Positions 13,096 to 49,365 of a stretch of 64,000 nucleotides of DNA are shown piece by piece. The DNA is from Bacillota bacterium (GTDB lineage Bacteria > Bacillota > Clostridia > Lachnospirales > Lachnospiraceae), in the NCBI GenBank assembly GCA_023442465.1, contig JAEZZQ010000050.1, positions 14,843 through 78,842 on the forward strand, written 5' to 3'. The notes beneath the pieces were generated by a model. It made no database searches and was not told the DNA's origin. It worked only from the letters and a program-made list of their open reading frames with translations. Made by a program: the position numbers and the translations under genes. Position 1 is the stretch's first letter; every line of letters begins with the position of its first letter.

Positions 13096-14503
13096 AAAAA
13101 TAAAAAAATATACAACTTCTTTGGAAAAATGGGATATGGGCCTGCTCATCGTATGTTTGGGCTTCTATCTCTTTTTTCCGTTTTACGACGGGCCGGTGTG
13201 GTGCGCAGATTCTCCCAGCTATGCAACTATGAACATTACGAGGGAGCCTTTATATCCTACGTTTCTATGGATATTTCGCAGCCTGTTCGGCGAAGAAGGG
13301 TATCTCATGCCCGTGGTGATCATTCAAAGCCTCCTCGCAGCGTATGCGACGTGGAAACTGGCTGTTACCGTGAAAAAATATAAAGCCGGCAGCCGGCTGC
13401 TGGCTTTTTTGTCCGTATGCTTTCAGTTCGGTGTAACGTTTCTCTGCCGCTTTGTGGCGATTAGAGGTTCTTCGTATATCGACAGCATTATGACCGAAGG
13501 GCTCGGCTTATCTCTCTATGTACTCTTTATCGTTCAGCTATACAAATATATTATGGAAGAAAAGATGCGTAATCTGGCGGCGACAGCATGCTTTGCCCTG
13601 CTTCTCGTTAATCTCCGCAAGCAGATGCTCATTTCACTTGCTTTGATGGCAGCGGTATTTATCCTATATTATCTCATAAAAAAGAGGAACATGAAAAAGC
13701 TGCTGTTATTGCTGGGACTGACCGTATGCTTATTTTTTGCCGGCAAGCTTTCAGACCGCTTTTACAACTATTGCGTCAGGGGCGTTTGGATGGAACATTC
13801 CGGCAACTCTATGGGGATGCTGTGCACATTGATTTATACCTCCGAGGAGGGGGACGCTTCTTTGTTCGAGGATGAGACGGTGCGCGGCCTATATGAGGAG
13901 ATTCTTGCGCAGGCAAACGAGCAGGGGCTTCGCAAGATGTATGCGCCTGAAGGATGGGTGGATTTATCTACTCATTATGCGGACAGCTACGATGCCATAG
14001 GTTATGGTATCATCAATCCGGTGGTTCAGGAATATATTGCAGAGCATTTTGAATATTCGGAAATAGATGCGGTACTTCAATATGATATATATTGTAATTC
14101 GATGGCAAAGACGCTGCTTTTGCAAGGGACACACTTTGATACGGGTGATTTGCTTCAGGTCTTTTTGGCAAATACGTGGAAGGGCTTTGTTAATTCCATC
14201 GCAAGGGTGAATACTTATCTGAATTTATATGCGGTTTTGGCATATGTGCTCTATCTTCTTTTGTACGTGTATTCTTCTTGCGAAGGCAGCAAGCCGAATG
14301 CAAGCCGAAAAGGGTGGAGGTTACCGGACAGTACGCTGACCATGGCAGAGATTGTGATCGGCGGAGTGATTGTGAATTCCATTGTGGTAGGGGCCATGAT
14401 ATTTACGCAGCCCCGCTATATGATTTATAATATGGGGTTGTTTTATACAGCATTGTCTCTGTTGGCATACGATTTACTTCCTTGGAAGGGGAGAAAGCAG
14501 TGA
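13079..14503 (+). CDS. Polytopic membrane protein, candidate GT-C-type extracytoplasmic glycosyltransferase
   Basis: 474-aa hydrophobic protein. Its start overlaps the GT2 stop, and its position matches the GtrC/YfhO slot of three-component glycosylation systems. Confidence 0.55.
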   Translation: MMMWIKKIKKYTTSLEKWDMGLLIVCLGFYLFFPFYDGPVWCADSPSYATMNITREPLYPTFLWIFRSLFGEEGYLMPVVIIQSLLAAYATWKLAVTVKKYKAGSRLLAFLSVCFQFGVTFLCRFVAIRGSSYIDSIMTEGLGLSLYVLFIVQLYKYIMEEKMRNLAATACFALLLVNLRKQMLISLALMAAVFILYYLIKKRNMKKLLLLLGLTVCLFFAGKLSDRFYNYCVRGVWMEHSGNSMGMLCTLIYTSEEGDASLFEDETVRGLYEEILAQANEQGLRKMYAPEGWVDLSTHYADSYDAIGYGIINPVVQEYIAEHFEYSEIDAVLQYDIYCNSMAKTLLLQGTHFDTGDLLQVFLANTWKGFVNSIARVNTYLNLYAVLAYVLYLLLYVYSSCEGSKPNASRKGWRLPDSTLTMAEIVIGGVIVNSIVVGAMIFTQPRYMIYNMGLFYTALSLLAYDLLPWKGRKQ

Positions 14504-32517: not shown

Positions 32518-32527
32518 TCATAAAAAA

Positions 32528-32612
32528 CTTTGGTCACAAAAGTGTGCTTCGCCCACTTCTGTGACCAAAGTTTGGCAGCACAGCTTTTGTTCCGCGCGCG
32601 CAGCTGCGCATC
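32528..32612. terminator. Convergent-gene terminator region built from repeat-family-2 blocks
   Basis: A 10-bp stem CTTTGGTCAC / GTGACCAAAG is flanked by an A-run (T-run on the minus strand). A GCGCAG/CTGCGC hairpin is followed by a T-rich tail on the plus strand. It also contains an inverted copy of GTGGGCGAAGCACACTTTTGTG. Confidence 0.6.
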
Positions 32613-33733: not shown

Positions 33734-33767
33734 TTGTACTATTATTTATCTCAAAAATCCATACAAA

Positions 33768-33813
33768 ATATGAGCCGGATAAAATTTTAAGATTTATTTT
33801 ATCCGGCTCATAT
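33768..33813. terminator. Strong hairpin terminator (18-bp perfect stem)
   Basis: ATATGAGCCGGATAAAAT / ATTTTATCCGGCTCATAT, just downstream of the minus-strand small gene. The minus-strand tail is T-rich. Confidence 0.7.
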
Positions 33814-33848
33814 TCCTTCTCTTTCTTCCTTGTAACATCCCAATTTTG

Positions 33849-44221: not shown

Positions 44222-46486
44222 ATGAATGCTTTTTCAAGCACGGAGCAGATTGGAAAAATAGTTCTTGACTATAAATATTATCCGGGTGAGGACCTTTACT
44301 GTGACGGAGAGGTGGAGGACGAGCTTCTGGACATTGTTAAAAACTATTCTTCCATAGAATATAGGCGTATTATTGAAGAGCGCGCCAAATGGCCGGTTCT
44401 CTATCATTTGTCTCCTCTCAGGGAAAATATTGTGGACTGGATTCCTATGGATAAAAATGCGAAGGTACTGGAGGTAGGAGCGGGATGCGGCGCGATTACA
44501 GGCAGTCTTGCAAAAAAAGCGGGAAGTGTTACCTGCATCGACTTATCCAGAAAAAGAAGTATGATCAATGCCTATAGGCATCAGGACTGTGATAACGTTA
44601 CCATACATGTTGGTAATTTTAAGGATATAGAGCCGGAGCTGCCGAATGATTTCGATTTTATTTATTTCATCGGAGTGTTCGAGTACGGTCAGAGTTATAC
44701 CGGAACTGCCCACCCCTATGAGGATTTGCTCAAGATGATGCTGCGCCACTTAAAAAAGGGCGGGAGAATCATCATCGCTATTGAAAATAGACTGGGACTT
44801 AAGTATTTCGCCGGGTGCAGGGAAGATCATCTGGGAACTTATTTTTCAGGAATTGAGGATTATGCACAGGGCGGCGGTGTGCGCACCTTCACTAGAGAAG
44901 GGCTGGAAAATATTTTCCGCGTCTGCGGGGTGGAAAACTATTCCTTCTATTATCCATACCCTGACTATAAATTTATGACTGCGTTGTATTCCGACAAGAG
45001 GCTTCCGCTGCCGGGAGAACTGTCGGAGAACAGCAGGAATTTCGATAGGGACAGAATGCTCCTTTTCGATGAGAAGCAGGCGTTCGACGGGATAATAAAG
45101 GACGGTATTTTTTCTGTATTTTCCAATTCTTATGTAGCGGTTATCGGAGATGGTTTCGATATAAAATATGCCAAGTATTCCAACGATCGTTCGCCGGAGT
45201 ACGAGATTCGTACCGAGATATGCATTGACGAAGATGGGAAAAAGATAGTAAAAAAACATGCGTTATCGAATGAGGCTATAGAGCATATCAGAAGTATGGA
45301 GACGGCATATATCGACTTGACGCAAAGATTCGAAGGAGGTAAGCTGGAAGTCAATAAGTGCAGCTTATGTGAAGACGGTAAGTCGGCGCAGTTCGAATAT
45401 GTGGAGGGGATAACGCTGGAGGAGATTTTGGACGGCTGCCTGGAGAGAAATGAGATTGATAAATTCCATGCGTTATTTAATGAGTATCTGGAGAGAATTT
45501 CTTATCATGAGGAAATGCCTGTGGCAGATTATGATTTGATTTTTTCCAATATATTGATTACACCAAAAGAGGCGGCTGATGAGGTGACGGATAAAGCTGC
45601 AGAGGAAGTTTTGGGTGAACCGGCTGGCAATGATGCCGGGGATACGGTTAAAGAAATATCAGTAGAAGCAGCTAAAGGAGTTGCCGGAGAAACAGCAGAA
45701 GAAACTTTCAGGGAGACAGTAAGTGAGGATTCATATTCAGAGGAACCTGGTCTTAAGGCGATAAAGGATGGAGTTTGGACGATCATAGACTACGAGTGGA
45801 CCTTCGGCAAGCCGGTTAGTGCCAAGGAAACGGCATTCCGCGCGGTATATTGCTATGTCCTCGAAAATGAGAAGCGAAATAAACTGAATTTAGATGCGAT
45901 AATAAACACTCTTGGTATTACGGAACGGGAGGCGGAGGAATTCCGTGAGCAAGAGATGGGATTTCAGGAGTTCGTTACCGGGAAGCATAAGTCTATGGCA
46001 CAAATGCGTGAATCCATAGGTTATAAAATTATGGAGCCGCTAAAGTGGGTGCATAAGTTTGATGATTCTTCAAAGAAAGAGAGAATACAGATTTATGAAG
46101 ATAGAGGAAATGGGTATTGTGAGGAGGATTCCTATTTCGTAAGGGACGCTTATGAAGGGGAAAATTTGATTCGTTTGGAGTTGGAGGCGGATGGGGATGT
46201 CAATATGCTCCGCATAGATCCGGCAATGGATTATTGTATCGTGCGGGTGAAGGCGCTGACTTTTAACGGAGAAGCGGTGGAGCTTGGCAAGAAGAATATT
46301 ATTACTAACGGGAAGAGTATGAGGGACGGGAGTTATGTGTTTGCGACGGAGGATCCTAATATAAATATCAGGCTGAGCAATTTGGAGAGGATGGGGAAGA
46401 ATGAAATAGTGGCAGAAATGGAAATTGTGCGCGTGCCGGAGGATATTGCGAAGGATATGGCGGGAGCGGTGAAGAGGATTTGGTGA
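44222..46486 (+). CDS. Bifunctional-looking methyltransferase / kinase-like protein (WbdD-like candidate chain terminator)
   Basis: SAM motif VLEVGAGCGAITG; kinase-like catalytic loop DYDLIFSNILI; IIDYEWTFG (DxE-type) segment. The last two are separated by an acidic low-complexity insert. The C-terminal region is about 200 aa. Confidence 0.65.
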   Translation: MNAFSSTEQIGKIVLDYKYYPGEDLYCDGEVEDELLDIVKNYSSIEYRRIIEERAKWPVLYHLSPLRENIVDWIPMDKNAKVLEVGAGCGAITGSLAKKAGSVTCIDLSRKRSMINAYRHQDCDNVTIHVGNFKDIEPELPNDFDFIYFIGVFEYGQSYTGTAHPYEDLLKMMLRHLKKGGRIIIAIENRLGLKYFAGCREDHLGTYFSGIEDYAQGGGVRTFTREGLENIFRVCGVENYSFYYPYPDYKFMTALYSDKRLPLPGELSENSRNFDRDRMLLFDEKQAFDGIIKDGIFSVFSNSYVAVIGDGFDIKYAKYSNDRSPEYEIRTEICIDEDGKKIVKKHALSNEAIEHIRSMETAYIDLTQRFEGGKLEVNKCSLCEDGKSAQFEYVEGITLEEILDGCLERNEIDKFHALFNEYLERISYHEEMPVADYDLIFSNILITPKEAADEVTDKAAEEVLGEPAGNDAGDTVKEISVEAAKGVAGETAEETFRETVSEDSYSEEPGLKAIKDGVWTIIDYEWTFGKPVSAKETAFRAVYCYVLENEKRNKLNLDAIINTLGITEREAEEFREQEMGFQEFVTGKHKSMAQMRESIGYKIMEPLKWVHKFDDSSKKERIQIYEDRGNGYCEEDSYFVRDAYEGENLIRLELEADGDVNMLRIDPAMDYCIVRVKALTFNGEAVELGKKNIITNGKSMRDGSYVFATEDPNINIRLSNLERMGKNEIVAEMEIVRVPEDIAKDMAGAVKRIW

Positions 46487-46497
46487 GGGGAGTGAGT

Positions 46498-46825
46498 GCG
46501 AAACTGGTGGGGAGTGGAAATTTTATGTACAATTCGGGGAGGCTGTGTGAGCCTTTCTTCGGTGGATTTGGTTTCTGTTCCGGCGCTCGCGGCTGTGTTT
46601 TCTAAAGGAAACCGTGGATGTTGCGGGGGCGGACGGGCCGGCAGCAACGGACATCCATGTCCTATGCTGCCTAAACGCCGCATCCTTGCGGCGTTTTCCC
46701 TAGATATTGGGGTTCCCTTAAGAAAGCACAAGCCGCTCGCTGACGGAACAGAAACCAAACCACCGAAGAAAGGCTCGGTGAGGTTGTGAATTGTACATAA
46801 AATTGGCGAGGTTACTAGTTTCGCA
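46498..46825. repeat. Long imperfect palindrome (about 330 bp) with a GC-rich core and an internal terminator-like hairpin
   Basis: Paired arms are 46498-46507/46816-46825, 46518-46535/46788-46805 and 46549-46582/46744-46776 (33-34 bp, one indel). A looser pair is 46583-46613/46711-46740. The core hairpin is AAACGCCGC/GCGGCGTTT at 46673-46696. Confidence 0.85.
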
Positions 46826-46835
46826 ATTGCAGGCA

Positions 46836-47075
46836 GAGAAAAAAGAGTGGAAGGGCGAAGAGGCTTGAGGAGAGAAGAGTGTGGAAGCGTCAAGAGACTT
46901 GTGAATGGAAAAGAAGAGAGTGGGAGTACGAAGGGGTTCTGAAAGAAAAAGTTGAAATGTTAAGAGGCTCGGGAAGAGAAACGAGTTGAGATATGAAAAA
47001 GTTCAAGGAGAGAAAAGGGTGGAGCATAAAGTAGCTGGAGCGTGAAGCGTGTTGAAATGTAAGGTGAGTTGAGGA
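46836..47075 (+). repeat. Purine-rich, C-poor degenerate tandem array (about seven units of 33-35 bp)
   Basis: Units resemble AGAGAAAAGAGTGGAAGnnGAAGAGGCTTGAGG. They are similar to coding sequence 47182-47230 of the downstream gene. Confidence 0.7.
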
Positions 47076-47082
47076 GTGGATC

Positions 47083-49365
47083 TTGGGCGGTGGAATGAAG
47101 GCGTGGTTAAAAGGAAAGTTGATAGAAGGGCAGCGGAAGCAGTATGACAGGCTGTTTGAGAAGAAGAGTATTTCGTATGATGAGTGGATTCGGAAGAAGG
47201 AAGAGGTTCTGAGAGAGAAACTTGAGGAGGAGACGGGGGCGTATGGCGGACGAAGGCTCAGCGTCAGGCAGGTTTCTTATGGGGAGGCGAAGGGTTATGT
47301 GACGGGGGGCGGTGTCGGTAAAGAGGAGGCGGATATCGTTCTGTTTCAAGCGTCCGGCGGAAGGTGTTCGGAGCTTTCAGAGGAGTTAATTAGCAGCTTT
47401 TTTCTTGCGCATCCGCAGATTTCTATGGCTTATGGTGATGAGGATGTGCTTAGTCCCGATGGGATTCGATATACGCCGTGGTTGAAACCGGATTGGTCCC
47501 CGGATACTTTTTTGTCTTGCTTTTATTTCGGTTCTGTATTTGCGGTGCGCACTTATGTATTAATGGAGTTGTCGGAGGAGGAGATTCTTGGCTTTAGCGG
47601 GAAAGAGGCTGAGGAGGAACGTATATGGATTTATCGCATGTGTCGTTTGCTGGCTCAGAAGGCCGGCGGTTTTGAAAAGAGACGGGAAGGAAGGCCGGAG
47701 GGGTTTCCGGTGGGACATATCGATGAAATATTGTTCCATTCTTTTTTAAACAGAGAAGGAGAATTGCTTTATAATGAGGGCGGTTATTGGTGTGAAAGCA
47801 ATACTCTCAATGAAAACCTTTGTTTTGATGAACATAATCCTTTCGGTGGAGATAGTGATTCCGGTAAAAGTGAAAAAGGGCTTATTTCCATAATTATTCC
47901 ATCTAAGGATAACGAGGAAGTGCTGAAACAATGCATAGAGTCCGTAAAAGGTTCGGCGAAGATGCCTTATGAAATTATTTTGGTGGATAATGGCAGTGAG
48001 GAACAGACTAAGGAGAGTCTGAACGGCTATTTAAGTGGACTTGGGATTAAATATACTTATATTTATGAAAAAAGACCCTTCCATTTCTCCGCTATGTGCA
48101 ATATGGGGGCGGCAGCGGCGGCAGGAGAAGTGTGCCTGTTTCTCAATGATGATGTAGAGGTGCCGGAGGCGGTTGAGCCAGAGAAAATGGAACCGGCGGA
48201 ACTTGGTTCGGCAGGACTTAAATCGGAGAAGTATGGTTCGGCAGGATTTAAGCCGGTAGAGCATGGTCATGCAGGGGTTGAGGCGGAAGGACTTGAGCAG
48301 AATGCGTCTGAGGAAAATGGGAGAAAAGCAACCGGATGGCTGGAAAAGCTCTATGCGGAGGCGATGAAGCCTTATGCGGGGGCTGTAGGGGTCAAGCTAT
48401 TGTATCCGGATTCTGACAGGGTGCAGCATGGGGGTATCGTAAACTTGCGTCTGGGGCCGGTGCATAAGCTTCAGTTTAAAGATAATAAGGAGCAGTATTA
48501 TTATGGATGGAACCGTGGCATGAGAAATGTTATCGCGGTAACGGGGGCTTGCCTTGCCGTTGAGAAGGAGAAGTTTGAGGAAGTGGGTGGTTTCCCCGAG
48601 GAATTGCCGGTGGCCTTTAATGATGTGGATTTATGTTTTTCTTTATACGAGAAGGGGTATTATAATACAGTTTTACAAGGGACGGTGCTATATCACTATG
48701 AATCGCTGAGCAGAGGACAGGATGAAGAGAGGGATAAGCTTGAACGGCTGCTGGCGGAAAAGCGGAAGCTTTACGCCCGGCATAGGGGGCTTTACGGGAA
48801 GGATCCCTTTTACCATAAATATCTGGCAGGAGATATGCTTTCCACGGGATTTGAACTTAGGGCTGATTATGATTGGCAGGAGAATATGACTTATGGGAAG
48901 GTCGTAGAAGCTGGTGGATTATTGGAAGCTGCCAGGGAGGATGCATGTGTCATGATTAGTCTGGAATATGCGGGAACTTTGGAGGAATGGCGTTGTGGGA
49001 TAGAGCCGGAGAATGGACCGGACGATCATATGCAGGATTATTATATACAAGGGTATTCCTTTGTGGCAGGTTCGGATAACGCATGTTATGAAAAGAGAAT
49101 TTTACTGGAGAGAACAAGCGGAGGGGCAGAATCTTTAAAAGGAGGAGTCCATAGGCTGTTTGCAGTCTCACCGGAGCTTTTTCTTCGAAAGGACGTGGAG
49201 CAGAATCTGCCGGATCAGGTCAATGTTGGAATGGCGGGCTTCGGAGCAGTGCTTCGAGGAAAAGATGTCAAAGAGGGAAATTATCGGTTGGGAATTCTTG
49301 TGAAAGATAAATGTTCGGGCCAGAAACTGTATTCATGGACGAACCGTTATCTGAATATTAAATAA
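47083..49365 (+). CDS. Multidomain GT2 glycosyltransferase
   Basis: ISIIIPSKDNEEVL and FLNDDVEV (DXD). The N-terminal domain has YGDEDVLSPDGIRYTPWLKPDWSPD. Start is TTG 47083 or ATG 47095. Confidence 0.8.
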   Translation: MGGGMKAWLKGKLIEGQRKQYDRLFEKKSISYDEWIRKKEEVLREKLEEETGAYGGRRLSVRQVSYGEAKGYVTGGGVGKEEADIVLFQASGGRCSELSEELISSFFLAHPQISMAYGDEDVLSPDGIRYTPWLKPDWSPDTFLSCFYFGSVFAVRTYVLMELSEEEILGFSGKEAEEERIWIYRMCRLLAQKAGGFEKRREGRPEGFPVGHIDEILFHSFLNREGELLYNEGGYWCESNTLNENLCFDEHNPFGGDSDSGKSEKGLISIIIPSKDNEEVLKQCIESVKGSAKMPYEIILVDNGSEEQTKESLNGYLSGLGIKYTYIYEKRPFHFSAMCNMGAAAAAGEVCLFLNDDVEVPEAVEPEKMEPAELGSAGLKSEKYGSAGFKPVEHGHAGVEAEGLEQNASEENGRKATGWLEKLYAEAMKPYAGAVGVKLLYPDSDRVQHGGIVNLRLGPVHKLQFKDNKEQYYYGWNRGMRNVIAVTGACLAVEKEKFEEVGGFPEELPVAFNDVDLCFSLYEKGYYNTVLQGTVLYHYESLSRGQDEERDKLERLLAEKRKLYARHRGLYGKDPFYHKYLAGDMLSTGFELRADYDWQENMTYGKVVEAGGLLEAAREDACVMISLEYAGTLEEWRCGIEPENGPDDHMQDYYIQGYSFVAGSDNACYEKRILLERTSGGAESLKGGVHRLFAVSPELFLRKDVEQNLPDQVNVGMAGFGAVLRGKDVKEGNYRLGILVKDKCSGQKLYSWTNRYLNIK

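What the first reader, a model, noticed from the sequence alone, without database searches (positions are those of the whole stretch)
46498..46825. About 330-bp near-perfect palindrome with a GC-rich core between the WbdD-like gene and the glycosyltransferase genes
- Nested inverted repeats span 46498-46825 and include a 33-34 bp arm pair with a single indel (46549-46582 / 46744-46776).
- The mismatched internal loops are not random. Both arms carry a similar G/T-rich motif in direct orientation (GGGGAGGCTGTGTGA and CGGTGAGGTTGTGAA).
- The central roughly 95 bp is much more GC-rich than the surrounding genome. It contains a 9-bp-stem terminator-like hairpin (46673-46696).
- The two ORFs predicted here on opposite strands are explained by the palindrome.

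Candidate explanations: a different MITE or foldback element, an invertible segment bounded by long inverted repeats (phase variation of the downstream GT genes), an operon insulator/terminator, or a structured RNA. I see no convincing promoter hexamers in the core and no recombinase gene in the window.
Basis: seen in the sequence. Interest (0 to 1): 0.68.

Follow-up and report, generated by a model that had tools for sequence, protein, structure and literature searches.

The report
Mobile palindrome carrying the TwoAYGGAY motif
The 330-bp palindrome is an old, fixed copy of a small mobile DNA element whose centre is the already catalogued but functionally unexplained "TwoAYGGAY" RNA motif; it is a known kind of sequence, although its transposon-like nature seems not to have been described.

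Summary
The palindrome is real: nested arms at 46497-46825 and a fold z-score of about -17. Its GC-rich centre (46582-46743, minus strand) matches Rfam TwoAYGGAY (RF01731) at 83.7 bits against a threshold of 43. The "terminator-like hairpin" is hairpin 1 of that motif.

The whole ~330-bp unit is a dispersed repeat. An exact core pattern found 78 loci, almost all in Lachnospiraceae, with at least 7 copies in Kineothrix alysoides and about 15-17 in some MAGs. All are intergenic and occur in either orientation.

Younger subfamilies end in GTAAC/GTTAC inverted termini flanked by 8-bp target-site duplications. At least 7 of 8 bases match in 17% of copies, against 0.7% of controls. That makes the family a MITE, with IS66/ISBst12-like ends.

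The window copy sits at the same site in K. alysoides and one further species. More distant relatives with the same gene order have a 35-85-nt spacer there, an empty site.

Arms and apex hairpins covary strongly. No promoter, plus-strand terminator, recombinase neighbour or plasmid/phage copy was found.

What the apex does is untested. Its two GGA loops resemble CsrA sites. Here the Rfam strand is antisense to the operon. Inversion could not be tested without reads.

The parts
46487..46829 (.). Whole inserted unit, with approximate ends. It runs from just after the stop codon of the WbdD-like methyltransferase gene (TGA 46484-46486) to the conserved right end ...GTTTCGCAATTG.
   Evidence: Paralogous copies at unrelated loci align to window 46502/46517 through 46814/46831 (alignments). 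Orthologous empty sites in L205-L207 bound the insertion.
46497..46508 (.). Outermost left arm, TGCGAAACTGGT. It pairs with 46814-46825.
   Evidence: pair I5 (12 nt, 92%)
46814..46825 (.). Outermost right arm, ACTAGTTTCGCA.
   Evidence: pair I5
46509..46518 (+). Outer mismatch loop, left side: GGGGAGTGGA, G-rich on the + strand. It lies opposite GGCGAGGTT at 46805-46813.
   Evidence: Sequence; fold; alignment.
46519..46535 (.). Arm A, left: AATTTTATGTACAATTC.
   Evidence: pair I2 (17/17). Helix 1 is 98% paired, with 2 pairs changed on both sides.
46536..46550 (+). Inner mismatch loop, left side: GGGGAGGCTGTGTGA. This is one copy of the direct-repeat motif AGGYTGTGA.
   Evidence: It is conserved on this strand even in copies lying in the opposite orientation to their flanking genes (L159, L169).
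46549..46582 (.). Arm B, left: GAGCCTTTCTTCGGTGGATTTGGTTTCTGTTCCG.
   Evidence: pairs I1 and I3. Helix 3 has 31 pairs, 7 of them changed on both sides.
46582..46743 (-). TwoAYGGAY RNA motif (Rfam RF01731), a full-length match to model positions 1-168.
   Evidence: 83.7 bits against a gathering score of 43, E = 8e-13 for the whole window.
46640..46671 (-). Apex hairpin 2. The minus-strand apex reads GGACAUGGAUGUCC, with the loop octamer at 46652-46659.
   Evidence: pair I4; alignment. The stem covaries across 67 distinct copies.
46673..46696 (-). Apex hairpin 1: a 10-bp stem with minus-strand loop CAAGGAUG (46681-46688).
   Evidence: pair I6. Across the family, 660 of 670 stem positions are Watson-Crick, spread over 25 different stem sequences.
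46744..46776 (.). Arm B, right.
   Evidence: pairs I1 and I3
46776..46790 (+). Inner mismatch loop, right side: CGGTGAGGTTGTGAA, the second copy of the direct-repeat motif.
46788..46804 (.). Arm A, right: GAATTGTACATAAAATT.
   Evidence: pair I2
46805..46813 (+). Outer mismatch loop, right side: GGCGAGGTT. Together with the first two bases of the outer right arm it reads GGCGAGGTTAC (46805-46815), which is conserved as GGCGAAGGTTAC in paralogues and resembles the right terminus GGCTGAACTGTTAC of a younger subfamily.
   Evidence: The resemblance to the terminus is a lead only.

Best explanation
The palindrome is a decayed, fixed copy of a non-autonomous transposable element (a MITE). It is a foldback hairpin over its whole length, and its conserved, non-palindromic apex is the Rfam TwoAYGGAY motif.

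Shown:
- The core is a TwoAYGGAY member.
- The ~330-bp unit recurs at unrelated intergenic sites in Kineothrix, Acetatifactor and other Lachnospiraceae genomes, in both orientations.
- Younger subfamilies have GTAAC/GTTAC inverted termini and 8-bp target-site duplications.
- The unit is present at this site in three species. More distant relatives with the same gene order lack it.
- Pairing in the arms and apex hairpins is kept by compensatory changes.

Inferred:
- Copies were mobilised in trans by a DDE transposase of the IS66 family, ISBst12 group. This rests on the 8-bp duplication and an 11/14 match of the terminus to ISDge4.
- The hairpin form, as single-stranded DNA or as RNA, is the form under constraint.
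- The window copy is no longer mobile, since no duplication is recognisable.
- The window copy is transcribed only by read-through of the polysaccharide operon. The mRNA then carries the complement of the Rfam strand (UCC loops, not GGA) as a long hairpin of about -197 kcal/mol.
- At most, that hairpin acts as a processing or 3'-stabilising structure between the wzm-wzt-methyltransferase genes and the glycosyltransferase genes.

The apex module carries two covarying hairpins with CA(U/A)GGAUG loops that resemble high-affinity CsrA sites. It is the conserved cargo of the element, and its own function remains untested.
For: - Rfam: 83.7 bits against a threshold of 43, full-length match. Thirteen further loci scanned, including six copies with target-site duplications, score 69-97 bits.
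- Dispersal: three paralogous or orthologous contexts were found through the spurious ORF. An exact core pattern found 78 loci, nearly all Lachnospiraceae and multi-copy per genome.
- Flanking gene orientation: both neighbours on the window's + orientation 33, both opposite 24, divergent 7, convergent 6.
- Arm length: the arms give elements of 155-487 bp at 79-96% complementarity over the main arm, with short outer segments up to 100%. The outer arms fall into subfamilies.
- Termini and duplications: for example tattaaac|GTTACAGTTC...CCGTAAC|tattaaac, ctaatttt|GTAACAGTTC...CTGTTAC|ctaatttt and cggtttga|GTAACAGTTCAGCC...GGCTGAACTGTTAC|cggtttga. At least 7 of 8 bases match in 12 of 69 copies, against 0.7% when flanks are paired at random.
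- Empty sites: L205, L206 and L207 keep GH25-rmlC-wzm-wzt-MTase-GT2-GT2 with a 35-85-nt spacer, against 608 nt in the window.
- Covariation in eight window-type copies: 97.4% of cells paired and 19 pairs changed on both sides, against 7.8 +/- 2.0 in shuffles (0 of 500 reach it) and 1-4 in slid controls.
- Apex hairpin 1: 660 of 670 positions Watson-Crick over 25 stem variants.
- No sigma-70 promoter on either strand and no plus-strand terminator. No positionally conserved promoter in 69 copies.
- ISDge4 has terminus GTAACTGCTCAGCA and an 8-bp direct repeat (PMC12898284).
- The large P1 stem was already noted by the motif's discoverers (PMC2864571 supplement).
Against: - The window copy itself shows no recognisable target-site duplication and no clean GTAAC termini. 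Its membership in the mobile family therefore rests on homology to dispersed copies and on the empty site.
- The empty-site relatives also lack the adjacent 250-bp purine-rich repeat, so the insertion was not a simple one-step event.
- No autonomous parent element or transposase was found.
- A MITE formed by deletion of an insertion sequence would not be expected to keep a conserved, covarying, strand-asymmetric apex that is also found in gamma-proteobacteria. This argues that the apex has a function of its own that this explanation leaves open.
- Compensatory changes along the whole arms are not required by a transposase that reads only the termini.
Confidence: 0.75

Rival explanations
1. The element is a free-standing small RNA gene family. 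The minus-strand TwoAYGGAY RNA would be transcribed from its own promoter. It would bind or sequester CsrA through its two GGA hairpin loops, and the long arms would only stabilise it. This overlaps with the novel reading (MITE-borne CsrA module) and is not exclusive of the MITE explanation.
For: - The Rfam strand carries CAAGGAUG and CAUGGAUG in hairpin loops.
- In many copies hairpin 2 reads GUACAUGGAUGUAC. That is 11 of 12 matches to the CsrA SELEX consensus RUACARGGAUGU, which CsrA prefers with GGA in a hairpin loop (PMC4347634).
- The CsrA-sponge idea has been published for this family (PMC4333381), and Rfam places it in clan CL00106.
- The apex stems covary strongly while the loops stay fixed.
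- A conserved UU-containing internal loop in hairpin 2 is asymmetric between strands.
Against: - No sigma-70-type promoter was found on either strand in 46200-47300.
- No promoter-like site is positionally conserved upstream of the core on the Rfam strand in 69 copies.
- Mismatches in the arms do not favour the Rfam strand: 117 G.U-compatible on that strand against 106 on the other. They track the sense strand of the flanking genes instead.
- Two sites are few for a sponge.
- Target-site duplications and terminal repeats show that the unit spreads as DNA.
- Whether these genomes encode CsrA was not established (one search is uninformative).
Confidence: 0.2
2. The segment is an invertible DNA switch. 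Recombination between the long inverted repeats would flip the core and phase-vary the downstream glycosyltransferase genes.
For: Long inverted repeats flank a non-palindromic core, upstream of surface-polysaccharide glycosyltransferase genes. One K. alysoides contig end (L196) shows a foldback of at least 1.5 kb centred on the element.
Against: - The same arrangement occurs at dozens of unrelated loci, such as greA-pfkB and kduD-rpiB.
- The core has the same orientation in the window, in two K. alysoides assemblies and in OH_HFB_401.
- No promoter lies in the core.
- None of the neighbours with a Pfam hit within 6 kb of three copies is a recombinase.
- The L196 foldback duplicates the methyltransferase gene itself at a contig end, which looks like an assembly artefact.
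Confidence: 0.03
3. The palindrome is a locally evolved operon terminator or insulator between the export/termination genes and the glycosyltransferase genes.
For: It lies 10 nt after a stop codon, in a 608-nt spacer between co-directional genes. The hairpin is very stable.
Against: - No plus-strand terminator-like site was found, and no U-tract follows the right arm.
- The sequence did not evolve locally. It is homologous over its whole length to copies elsewhere.
- Relatives manage with a 35-85-nt spacer.
Confidence: 0.05
4. The apex acts at the DNA level. The two hairpins with identical loops would be read in single-stranded or cruciform DNA, by the mobilising transposase or by a host factor, and no RNA would be involved.
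For: - The covariation is equally compatible with DNA hairpins.
- The arms show no preference for the RNA strand.
- The element is demonstrably a DNA transposon.
- No promoter was found.
Against: IS66-family transposition is not known to need hairpin DNA (my own knowledge, not tested). The loop sequence matches a well-defined RNA-binding consensus. The motif's discoverers judged it a probable RNA.
Confidence: 0.12

Closest known systems
TwoAYGGAY RNA motif (Rfam RF01731; Weinberg et al. 2010, PMC2864571)
   Same: - Full-length covariance-model match above the gathering score.
- Two adjacent hairpins with GGA-containing loops enclosed by a short helix.
- A very long closing stem P1; the discoverers wrote that it is 'often very large'.
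- Clostridial/gut taxonomy.
- Multi-copy in some genomes; several copies in Psychromonas ingrahamii appear in the seed alignment.
   Different: - Hairpin 1 has the loop AAGGAU, so the Y position is A. The K. alysoides orthologue has AUGGAU.
- The paired arms extend about 85 bp beyond the Rfam model on each side, and in other copies much further.
- Transposon hallmarks (terminal repeats, 8-bp duplications) are not part of the published description.
Bacterial MITEs and foldback repeats that form long hairpins when transcribed (Correia/NEMIS, ERIC/IRU, RUP, BOX); named from my own knowledge
   Same: Small, non-coding, intergenic, multi-copy. They have terminal inverted repeats and target-site duplications, are often co-transcribed with neighbouring genes, and occur in either orientation.
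   Different: Here the whole arms are complementary and vary in length (155-487 bp). The centre is a conserved, asymmetric module with covarying hairpins that is shared across subfamilies with unrelated arms. No sequence relationship to those named families was tested or is claimed.
IS66 family, ISBst12 group (for example ISDge4; PMC12898284)
   Same: Termini start with GTAAC. GTAACAGTTCAGCC matches ISDge4 GTAACTGCTCAGCA at 11 of 14 positions. The target duplication is 8 bp.
   Different: No transposase gene and no full-length element with these termini was found in the sequence held. A second subfamily starts with GTTAC. The window copy has no clean termini.
CsrB/CsrC/RsmX-Z CsrA-sequestering sRNAs (same Rfam clan, CL00106)
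   Same: GGA motifs are presented in hairpin loops, and the loop context is close to the SELEX consensus RUACARGGAUGU.
   Different: There are only two sites. No own promoter or terminator was detected. The module is carried on a mobile palindrome. In this window it lies antisense to the operon. CsrA binding and even the presence of csrA are untested.
Invertible promoter switches bounded by inverted repeats (fimS; Bacteroides capsular-polysaccharide invertons); named from my own knowledge
   Same: Inverted repeats lie upstream of surface-polysaccharide genes.
   Different: No recombinase and no promoter were found. The repeats are the arms of a dispersed mobile unit, and one orientation is seen in all assemblies examined.

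Membership tests
TwoAYGGAY RNA motif (RF01731) | Covariance-model score at or above Rfam's gathering score over the full model | tested here: met
   83.7 bits against 43, model positions 1-168 of 168, minus strand 46582-46743
TwoAYGGAY RNA motif (RF01731) | Two terminal loops that each contain AYGGAY | tested here: inconclusive
   Hairpin 2 has AUGGAU, which fits. Hairpin 1 has AAGGAU, with A at the Y position. The orthologue L123 and most family members have AUGGAU.
TwoAYGGAY RNA motif (RF01731) | Long closing stem P1 | tested here: met
   The arms run from 46497-46582 to 46744-46825. The discoverers describe the same feature.
TwoAYGGAY RNA motif (RF01731) | It is transcribed as an RNA from the model strand | not testable with these tools
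   No expression data are available. No promoter was found. The model strand is antisense to both flanking genes.
MITE (non-autonomous DNA transposon) | Many dispersed copies at unrelated sites | tested here: met
   78 loci were found. K. alysoides KNHs209 has 7 pattern matches plus one more copy detected by the covariance model. Only one copy lies in the 64-kb window.
MITE (non-autonomous DNA transposon) | Terminal inverted repeats | tested here: met
   The whole arms are inverted repeats. Clean termini are GTAACAGTTCAGCC...GGCTGAACTGTTAC and GTTACAGTTCACTCC...GGAGTGAACTGTAAC in two subfamilies.
MITE (non-autonomous DNA transposon) | Target-site duplication flanking the element | tested here: met
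   For the family: 8-bp duplications, 6 copies at 8/8 and 6 at 7/8. One of the 8/8 cases (L134) is an internal repeat of the element's own terminus, not a duplication. At least 7/8 is seen in 17% of copies against 0.7% of random-partner controls.
MITE (non-autonomous DNA transposon) | Target-site duplication at the window copy itself | tested here: not met
   The best flank match is 5 of 8, at control level. This fits an old, decayed copy but gives no positive evidence.
MITE (non-autonomous DNA transposon) | Orthologous empty site | tested here: met
   L205, L206 and L207 have the same gene order and a 35-85-nt spacer between the methyltransferase stop codon and the GT2 start.
MITE (non-autonomous DNA transposon) | No coding capacity | tested here: met
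   The ORFs on the element are mirror artefacts. Their only relatives are four proteins of 61-72 aa, one annotated 'hypothetical'; the three traced lie on other copies.
MITE (non-autonomous DNA transposon) | An autonomous partner element with the same termini in the same genomes | not tested
   Only 8-kb blocks around copies were held. A terminus search in those blocks found a few further terminus matches, one of them a solo terminus pair (L187), and no full-length element.
IS66 family / ISBst12-group derivative | Termini starting with GTAA and an 8-bp duplication | tested here: met
   There is an 11/14 identity to the ISDge4 terminus, which has an 8-bp direct repeat. This is a resemblance only.
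IS66 family / ISBst12-group derivative | A cognate IS66-type DDE transposase present | not tested
   No search for the transposase could be made in the source genomes.
CsrA-sequestering sRNA (CsrB/RsmZ type) | Several GGA motifs in hairpin loops | tested here: inconclusive
   There are two high-quality sites. Known sponges carry many more (my own knowledge).
CsrA-sequestering sRNA (CsrB/RsmZ type) | Independent transcription unit with its own promoter and terminator | tested here: not met
   No promoter was found on either strand, and none is conserved across 69 copies.
CsrA-sequestering sRNA (CsrB/RsmZ type) | The genome encodes CsrA and the RNA binds it | not testable with these tools
   A tblastn search of the held sequence found no csrA. 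This covers only a small fraction of each genome.
Invertible DNA switch | A site-specific recombinase nearby and both orientations present in the population | tested here: not met
   None of the genes with a Pfam hit within 6 kb of three copies is a recombinase, and none among the ten ORFs scanned from 37.4 to 53.2 kb of the window. A single orientation is seen in four assemblies. Read-level data were not available.
Intrinsic terminator | GC-rich hairpin followed by a U-tract on the transcribed strand | tested here: not met
   No plus-strand site was found. The two minus-strand sites lie inside the right arm.

The most novel reading that the evidence does not exclude
TwoAYGGAY elements are MITEs whose conserved cargo is a ready-made binding module for a dimeric RNA-binding protein, most plausibly CsrA: two hairpin-presented GGA sites. 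Transposition would then scatter this module through Lachnospiraceae genomes. A copy landing in the orientation where the GGA strand is transcribed would tie the neighbouring operon to the Csr regulon, or the copies together would form a distributed sponge. The long, compensating arms would hold the module at the tip of a nuclease-resistant stem. In that case an orphan Rfam motif from 2010 would be a mobile post-transcriptional regulatory cassette.
Probability: 0.15. Interest if true: 0.7.

Novelty: new member of a known kind. Interest (0 to 1): 0.4.

Why it matters
For genome annotation, the feature is explained. It is a TwoAYGGAY copy, and the 'hypothetical proteins' called on it in public Kineothrix annotations are artefacts.

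The wider point concerns the family. TwoAYGGAY has been an orphan motif since 2010, and a 2025 preprint still called it 'relatively unexplored'. The data here show that, at least in Lachnospiraceae, it is the apex of a transposable foldback element with IS66/ISBst12-like ends and 8-bp duplications. This reframes the question from 'what does this sRNA do' to 'why does a MITE carry a conserved, covarying two-hairpin module'.

It also supplies concrete tests: strand-specific transcription by orientation class, CsrA binding, and mobilisation by an ISBst12-type transposase. Finally, such palindromes break assemblies. One Logan contig ends at the centre of this one, and a PacBio contig end folds back on it.

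Tried and rejected
A hairpin check showed that none of the hits is a real member. It was replaced by a 21-base subfamily pattern.
- Calling flanking gene strand by 'longest ORF' mislabelled known genes, because antisense ORFs are long in this purine-skewed genome. It was replaced by a codon-usage scorer trained on the window.
- Minimum-free-energy folding overestimated palindrome extent. It was replaced by left-versus-right arm BLAST.
- The early impression that the Rfam strand is always antisense to its neighbours (4 of 4 loci) did not hold up: 33 against 24.
- The idea that each copy has unique, hypervariable arms was weakened. Many arms fall into subfamilies of 5-10 copies, and the singletons may reflect sparse sampling.
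- Arm sequences were not compared with phage or plasmid DNA on their own. The whole element has no match in plasmids, phages or IMG/VR.
- No target-site duplication was found for the window copy.
- The search for a parent insertion sequence through extra terminus matches found no full-length element; L187 holds only a solo terminus pair.
- A tblastn search for csrA in the held sequence found nothing and is uninformative.
- Promoter scans were negative in the window and across the family.
Full report
**1. The observation**

The repeat finder gives arm pairs at 46497-46508/46814-46825, at 46519-46535/46788-46804 (17/17), and at 46549-46582/46744-46776, the last split by one indel. As a single strand, 346 nt folds to -197.5 kcal/mol on the + strand and -173.8 on the - strand. 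The z-scores are -16.8 and -16.2, and no shuffle comes close. The centre is 58% GC against 44% for the window.

The G/T-rich motif that occurs in direct orientation in both arms is real (46536-46550 and 46776-46790). A second, outer pair of G-rich loops lies at 46509-46518 and 46805-46813.

Two corrections are needed. The central ~160 bp is not palindromic. The 46673-46696 hairpin has a 10-bp stem and no U-tract, and no plus-strand terminator-like site was found.

**2. What the core is**

A scan of the whole window against Rfam at curated thresholds gives exactly one hit: TwoAYGGAY (RF01731). It lies on the minus strand at 46582-46743, scores 83.7 bits against a gathering score of 43, and covers the full model. 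On the minus strand their loops read CAAGGAUG and CAUGGAUG.

The family was described in 2010 as a probable RNA that is neither cis-regulatory nor a riboswitch, found in human gut metagenomes, Clostridiales and gamma-proteobacteria. [quoted passage not shown] A 2014 paper proposed that it binds CsrA (PMC4333381). A 2025 preprint still calls it relatively unexplored. I found nothing in the held literature about mobility.

**3. The whole palindrome is a dispersed unit**

Gene callers place spurious ORFs on the palindrome, so I used the 97-aa ORF as a protein query. Three of its four hits, traced to their contigs, led to three contexts:
- the orthologous polysaccharide locus of Kineothrix alysoides (two assemblies);
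- a second K. alysoides site between an SDR gene and rpiB;
- a metagenomic site between greA and pfkB.

All carry TwoAYGGAY at 91-96 bits. The alignment shows that similarity covers the outer arms too, not only the Rfam core.

An exact pattern built from the apex (CATCCATG N10 CCTAAA N5 CATCCWTG; about one chance hit expected, by my estimate) found 78 loci among one genome per species. Nearly all are Lachnospiraceae. K. alysoides has 7, two MAGs have about 15-17 each, and Lachnospiraceae bacterium 64-25 has about 9. Three hits are likely chance matches in other phyla. A covariance-model scan of 13 of these loci confirmed them (69-97 bits) and revealed extra copies that the exact pattern had missed.

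The window comes from a close relative of K. alysoides. The element region is 89% identical in DNA, and the methyltransferase is 96% identical to a database protein.

**4. Hallmarks of transposition**

With a codon-usage gene caller trained on the window, the copies are intergenic and occur in both orientations relative to their neighbours: 33 co-directional one way, 24 the other, 13 between divergent or convergent genes.

Comparing the left arm with the right arm gives element lengths of 155-487 bp, at 79-96% complementarity over the main arm. The outer arms fall into subfamilies of 10, 8 and 5 copies, plus singletons.

In the two largest subfamilies the palindrome ends cleanly in GTAACAGTTCAGCC...GGCTGAACTGTTAC or GTTACAGTTCACTCC...GGAGTGAACTGTAAC. 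It is flanked by 8-bp direct repeats of otherwise unrelated flanking DNA, for example TATTAAAC, CTAATTTT, CGGTTTGA and CAATAAAA. Twelve of 69 copies show at least 7 of 8 matching bases, against 0.7% when left and right flanks of different copies are paired. One of those twelve (L134) is an internal repeat of the element's own terminus.

Terminal inverted repeats, a fixed-length target duplication, small size, lack of coding capacity and many copies define a MITE.

A terminus beginning GTAAC with an 8-bp duplication is what the IS66 family shows. ISDge4 of the ISBst12 group has GTAACTGCTCAGCA and an 8-bp repeat (PMC12898284). That is 11 of 14 identical to the terminus found here. No transposase or full-length partner was found, so this remains a lead.

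**5. History of the window copy**

The element sits at the same place in the window, in K. alysoides and in the MAG OH_HFB_401, whose methyltransferase is 86% identical. Three more distant relatives (79%, 77% and 69%) keep the gene order GH25-rmlC-wzm-wzt-methyltransferase-GT2-GT2. The C-terminus of the methyltransferase and the N-terminus of GT2 align to the residue. In those relatives only 35-85 nt separate the two genes, against 608 nt in the window.

The element was therefore inserted in the common ancestor of a Kineothrix-level clade and has been retained since. The window copy shows no recognisable duplication or clean terminus, which fits its age.

The rest of the enlarged spacer (46830-47082) is a degenerate ~34-nt tandem repeat that is 76% purine and 7% C. 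It is unlike any other intergenic region in the window. It is much shorter in OH_HFB_401 and absent from the empty sites.

**6. Is the structure under constraint, and on which strand?**

Across eight window-type copies at five or more independent loci, 107 predicted pairs are 97.4% paired. Nineteen pairs changed on both sides, against 7.8 +/- 2.0 in shuffles (0 of 500 reach it) and 1-4 when partners are slid by one to three columns.

Across 67 distinct copies, apex hairpin 1 is Watson-Crick at 660 of 670 positions while showing 25 different stem sequences. Hairpin 2 behaves the same way and keeps a UU-containing internal loop on one side.

So the hairpin form matters, or the arms are homogenised against each other. 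The data do not say whether this happens in RNA or in single-stranded DNA. In the arms, mismatches that would be G.U on the Rfam strand (117) and on the opposite strand (106) are balanced. In both orientation classes they favour whichever strand is sense to the flanking genes (53:36 and 42:25). That points to read-through transcription or a strand-specific mutation bias rather than to a dedicated Rfam-strand RNA.

No sigma-70-type promoter is found in 46200-47300 on either strand. No promoter-like site is positionally conserved in 69 copies.

**7. How it most likely works**

The best-supported reading is a selfish foldback MITE that is fixed here.

In this window the operon runs on the + strand, so read-through RNA carries the complement of the Rfam strand. 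That RNA has UCC loops and a 33-bp near-perfect duplex in arm B. It could be a substrate for a double-strand-specific nuclease, or it could protect the upstream message. This is inference only.

The conserved apex is the unexplained part. Its loops, in context (GUACAUGGAUGUAC in many copies, GGACAUGGAUGUCC here), are close to the CsrA SELEX consensus RUACARGGAUGU, which is preferentially bound with GGA in a hairpin loop (PMC4347634). The published CsrA hypothesis therefore stays alive for copies whose GGA strand is transcribed. I could not establish whether these genomes encode CsrA.

**8. The direct-repeat loops**

The motif AGGYTGTGA stays on the same element strand even in copies of the opposite orientation (L159 and L169). 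It is therefore a feature of the element, not a by-product of the host's purine skew.

The outer left loop (GGTGGGGAGTGGAA) and the right-end motif (GGCGAGGTTAC) resemble the right terminus of the younger subfamilies (about GGCGGGGAGTGAAC...GTAAC) in direct orientation. This suggests that the window-type subfamily is a rearranged or nested derivative. It is a post-hoc resemblance and I leave it unexplained.

**9. Rivals**

- An invertible switch is not supported. There is no recombinase, no promoter, one orientation in four assemblies, and the same architecture at dozens of loci. Read-level data are lacking.
- An intrinsic terminator is excluded on the + strand.
- A purely DNA-level role for the apex remains possible.
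- No copy was found on plasmids, phages or viral contigs.

**10. Verdict**

The feature is a bona fide member of a known Rfam family, so it is not new in kind. What appears to be new is the evidence that this family, at least in Lachnospiraceae, is carried by a transposable foldback element. That gives moderate interest.

Noticed in passing
window 46830-47082: A purine-rich (76% A+G, 7% C), degenerate ~34-nt tandem repeat fills the rest of the enlarged spacer upstream of the GT2 gene. Units resemble GTGGAAGNGNNAAGAGNCTTGAGGAGAGAAGA and look like repeated copies of the GT2 leader and ribosome-binding region. It is about 290 nt in K. alysoides, about 85 nt in OH_HFB_401, and absent from the empty-site relatives. 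No other intergenic region in the window has this composition.
   Followed up: partly
L196 (K. alysoides NZ_JPNB01000002.1, contig end); L124 (start of NZ_JPNB01000001.1); L001: One PacBio contig end is a palindrome of at least 1.5 kb per arm (98% identity) centred exactly on this element. It duplicates the 3' end of the methyltransferase gene in inverted orientation. The neighbouring contig starts with a frameshift-ridden copy of the same locus. A short-read Logan contig stops about 205 nt after the methyltransferase stop codon, near the palindrome centre. This is probably a foldback or assembly artefact caused by the hairpin, but a real inverted duplication is not excluded.
   Followed up: partly
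L142 5043-5206 (-) and 5574-5739 (+); L167 5962-6124 (-) and 7182-7344 (+): Two TwoAYGGAY copies lie in inverted orientation about 370 nt and 1.2 kb apart, which is a composite-transposon-like arrangement. The second copy of each pair was missed by the exact pattern, so copy numbers per genome are underestimates.
   Followed up: no
L166 4764-4879: A drum RNA (RF02958, 95.5 bits) lies about 200 nt from a TwoAYGGAY element that carries a target-site duplication.
   Followed up: no
L187 37-95: A right terminus, an 18-nt spacer, and then a left terminus joined directly to a degenerate right terminus (GTAACAGTTCAGCCTGAAATGTTAT). These are solo or minimal terminus remnants without an apex, possibly excision or deletion products.
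   Followed up: no
window 46496-46789 (+) and 46333-46893 (-); P0001-P0004: Public annotations-72-aa proteins on copies of this element; one is annotated 'hypothetical protein [Kineothrix alysoides]'. They are translation artefacts of the palindrome, but they work as handles for finding copies by protein search.
   Followed up: yes
window 47083-47097: The mechanical ORF for the first GT2 starts at TTG 47083. Alignment with orthologues (MKAWLKGKL against MKHLLKEKL) puts the real start at ATG 47095.
   Followed up: yes
69 family copies (loci L122-L203): In the arms, G.T-type mismatches are enriched on whichever strand is sense to the flanking genes (53:36 and 42:25 in the two orientation classes; 95:61 pooled). 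This could reflect read-through-RNA selection or a transcription/replication-linked C-to-T bias.
   Followed up: partly
window 46506-46519 and 46805-46815, compared with the termini of L127/L135/L198-type copies: Both outer G-rich loops of the window copy resemble the right terminus of a younger subfamily, in direct rather than inverted orientation (for example GGTGGGGAGTGGAA against about GGCGGGGAGTGAAC). This hints that the window-type subfamily is a nested or rearranged derivative. The resemblance was noticed post hoc and is unexplained.
   Followed up: no
window 32525-32573, 33767-33814, 13382-13407: Other short, strong inverted repeats: 23-nt arms with a 3-nt loop, 19-nt perfect arms with a 10-nt loop, and a 26-nt GC palindrome. 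They are probably terminators and are unrelated to the finding.
   Followed up: no
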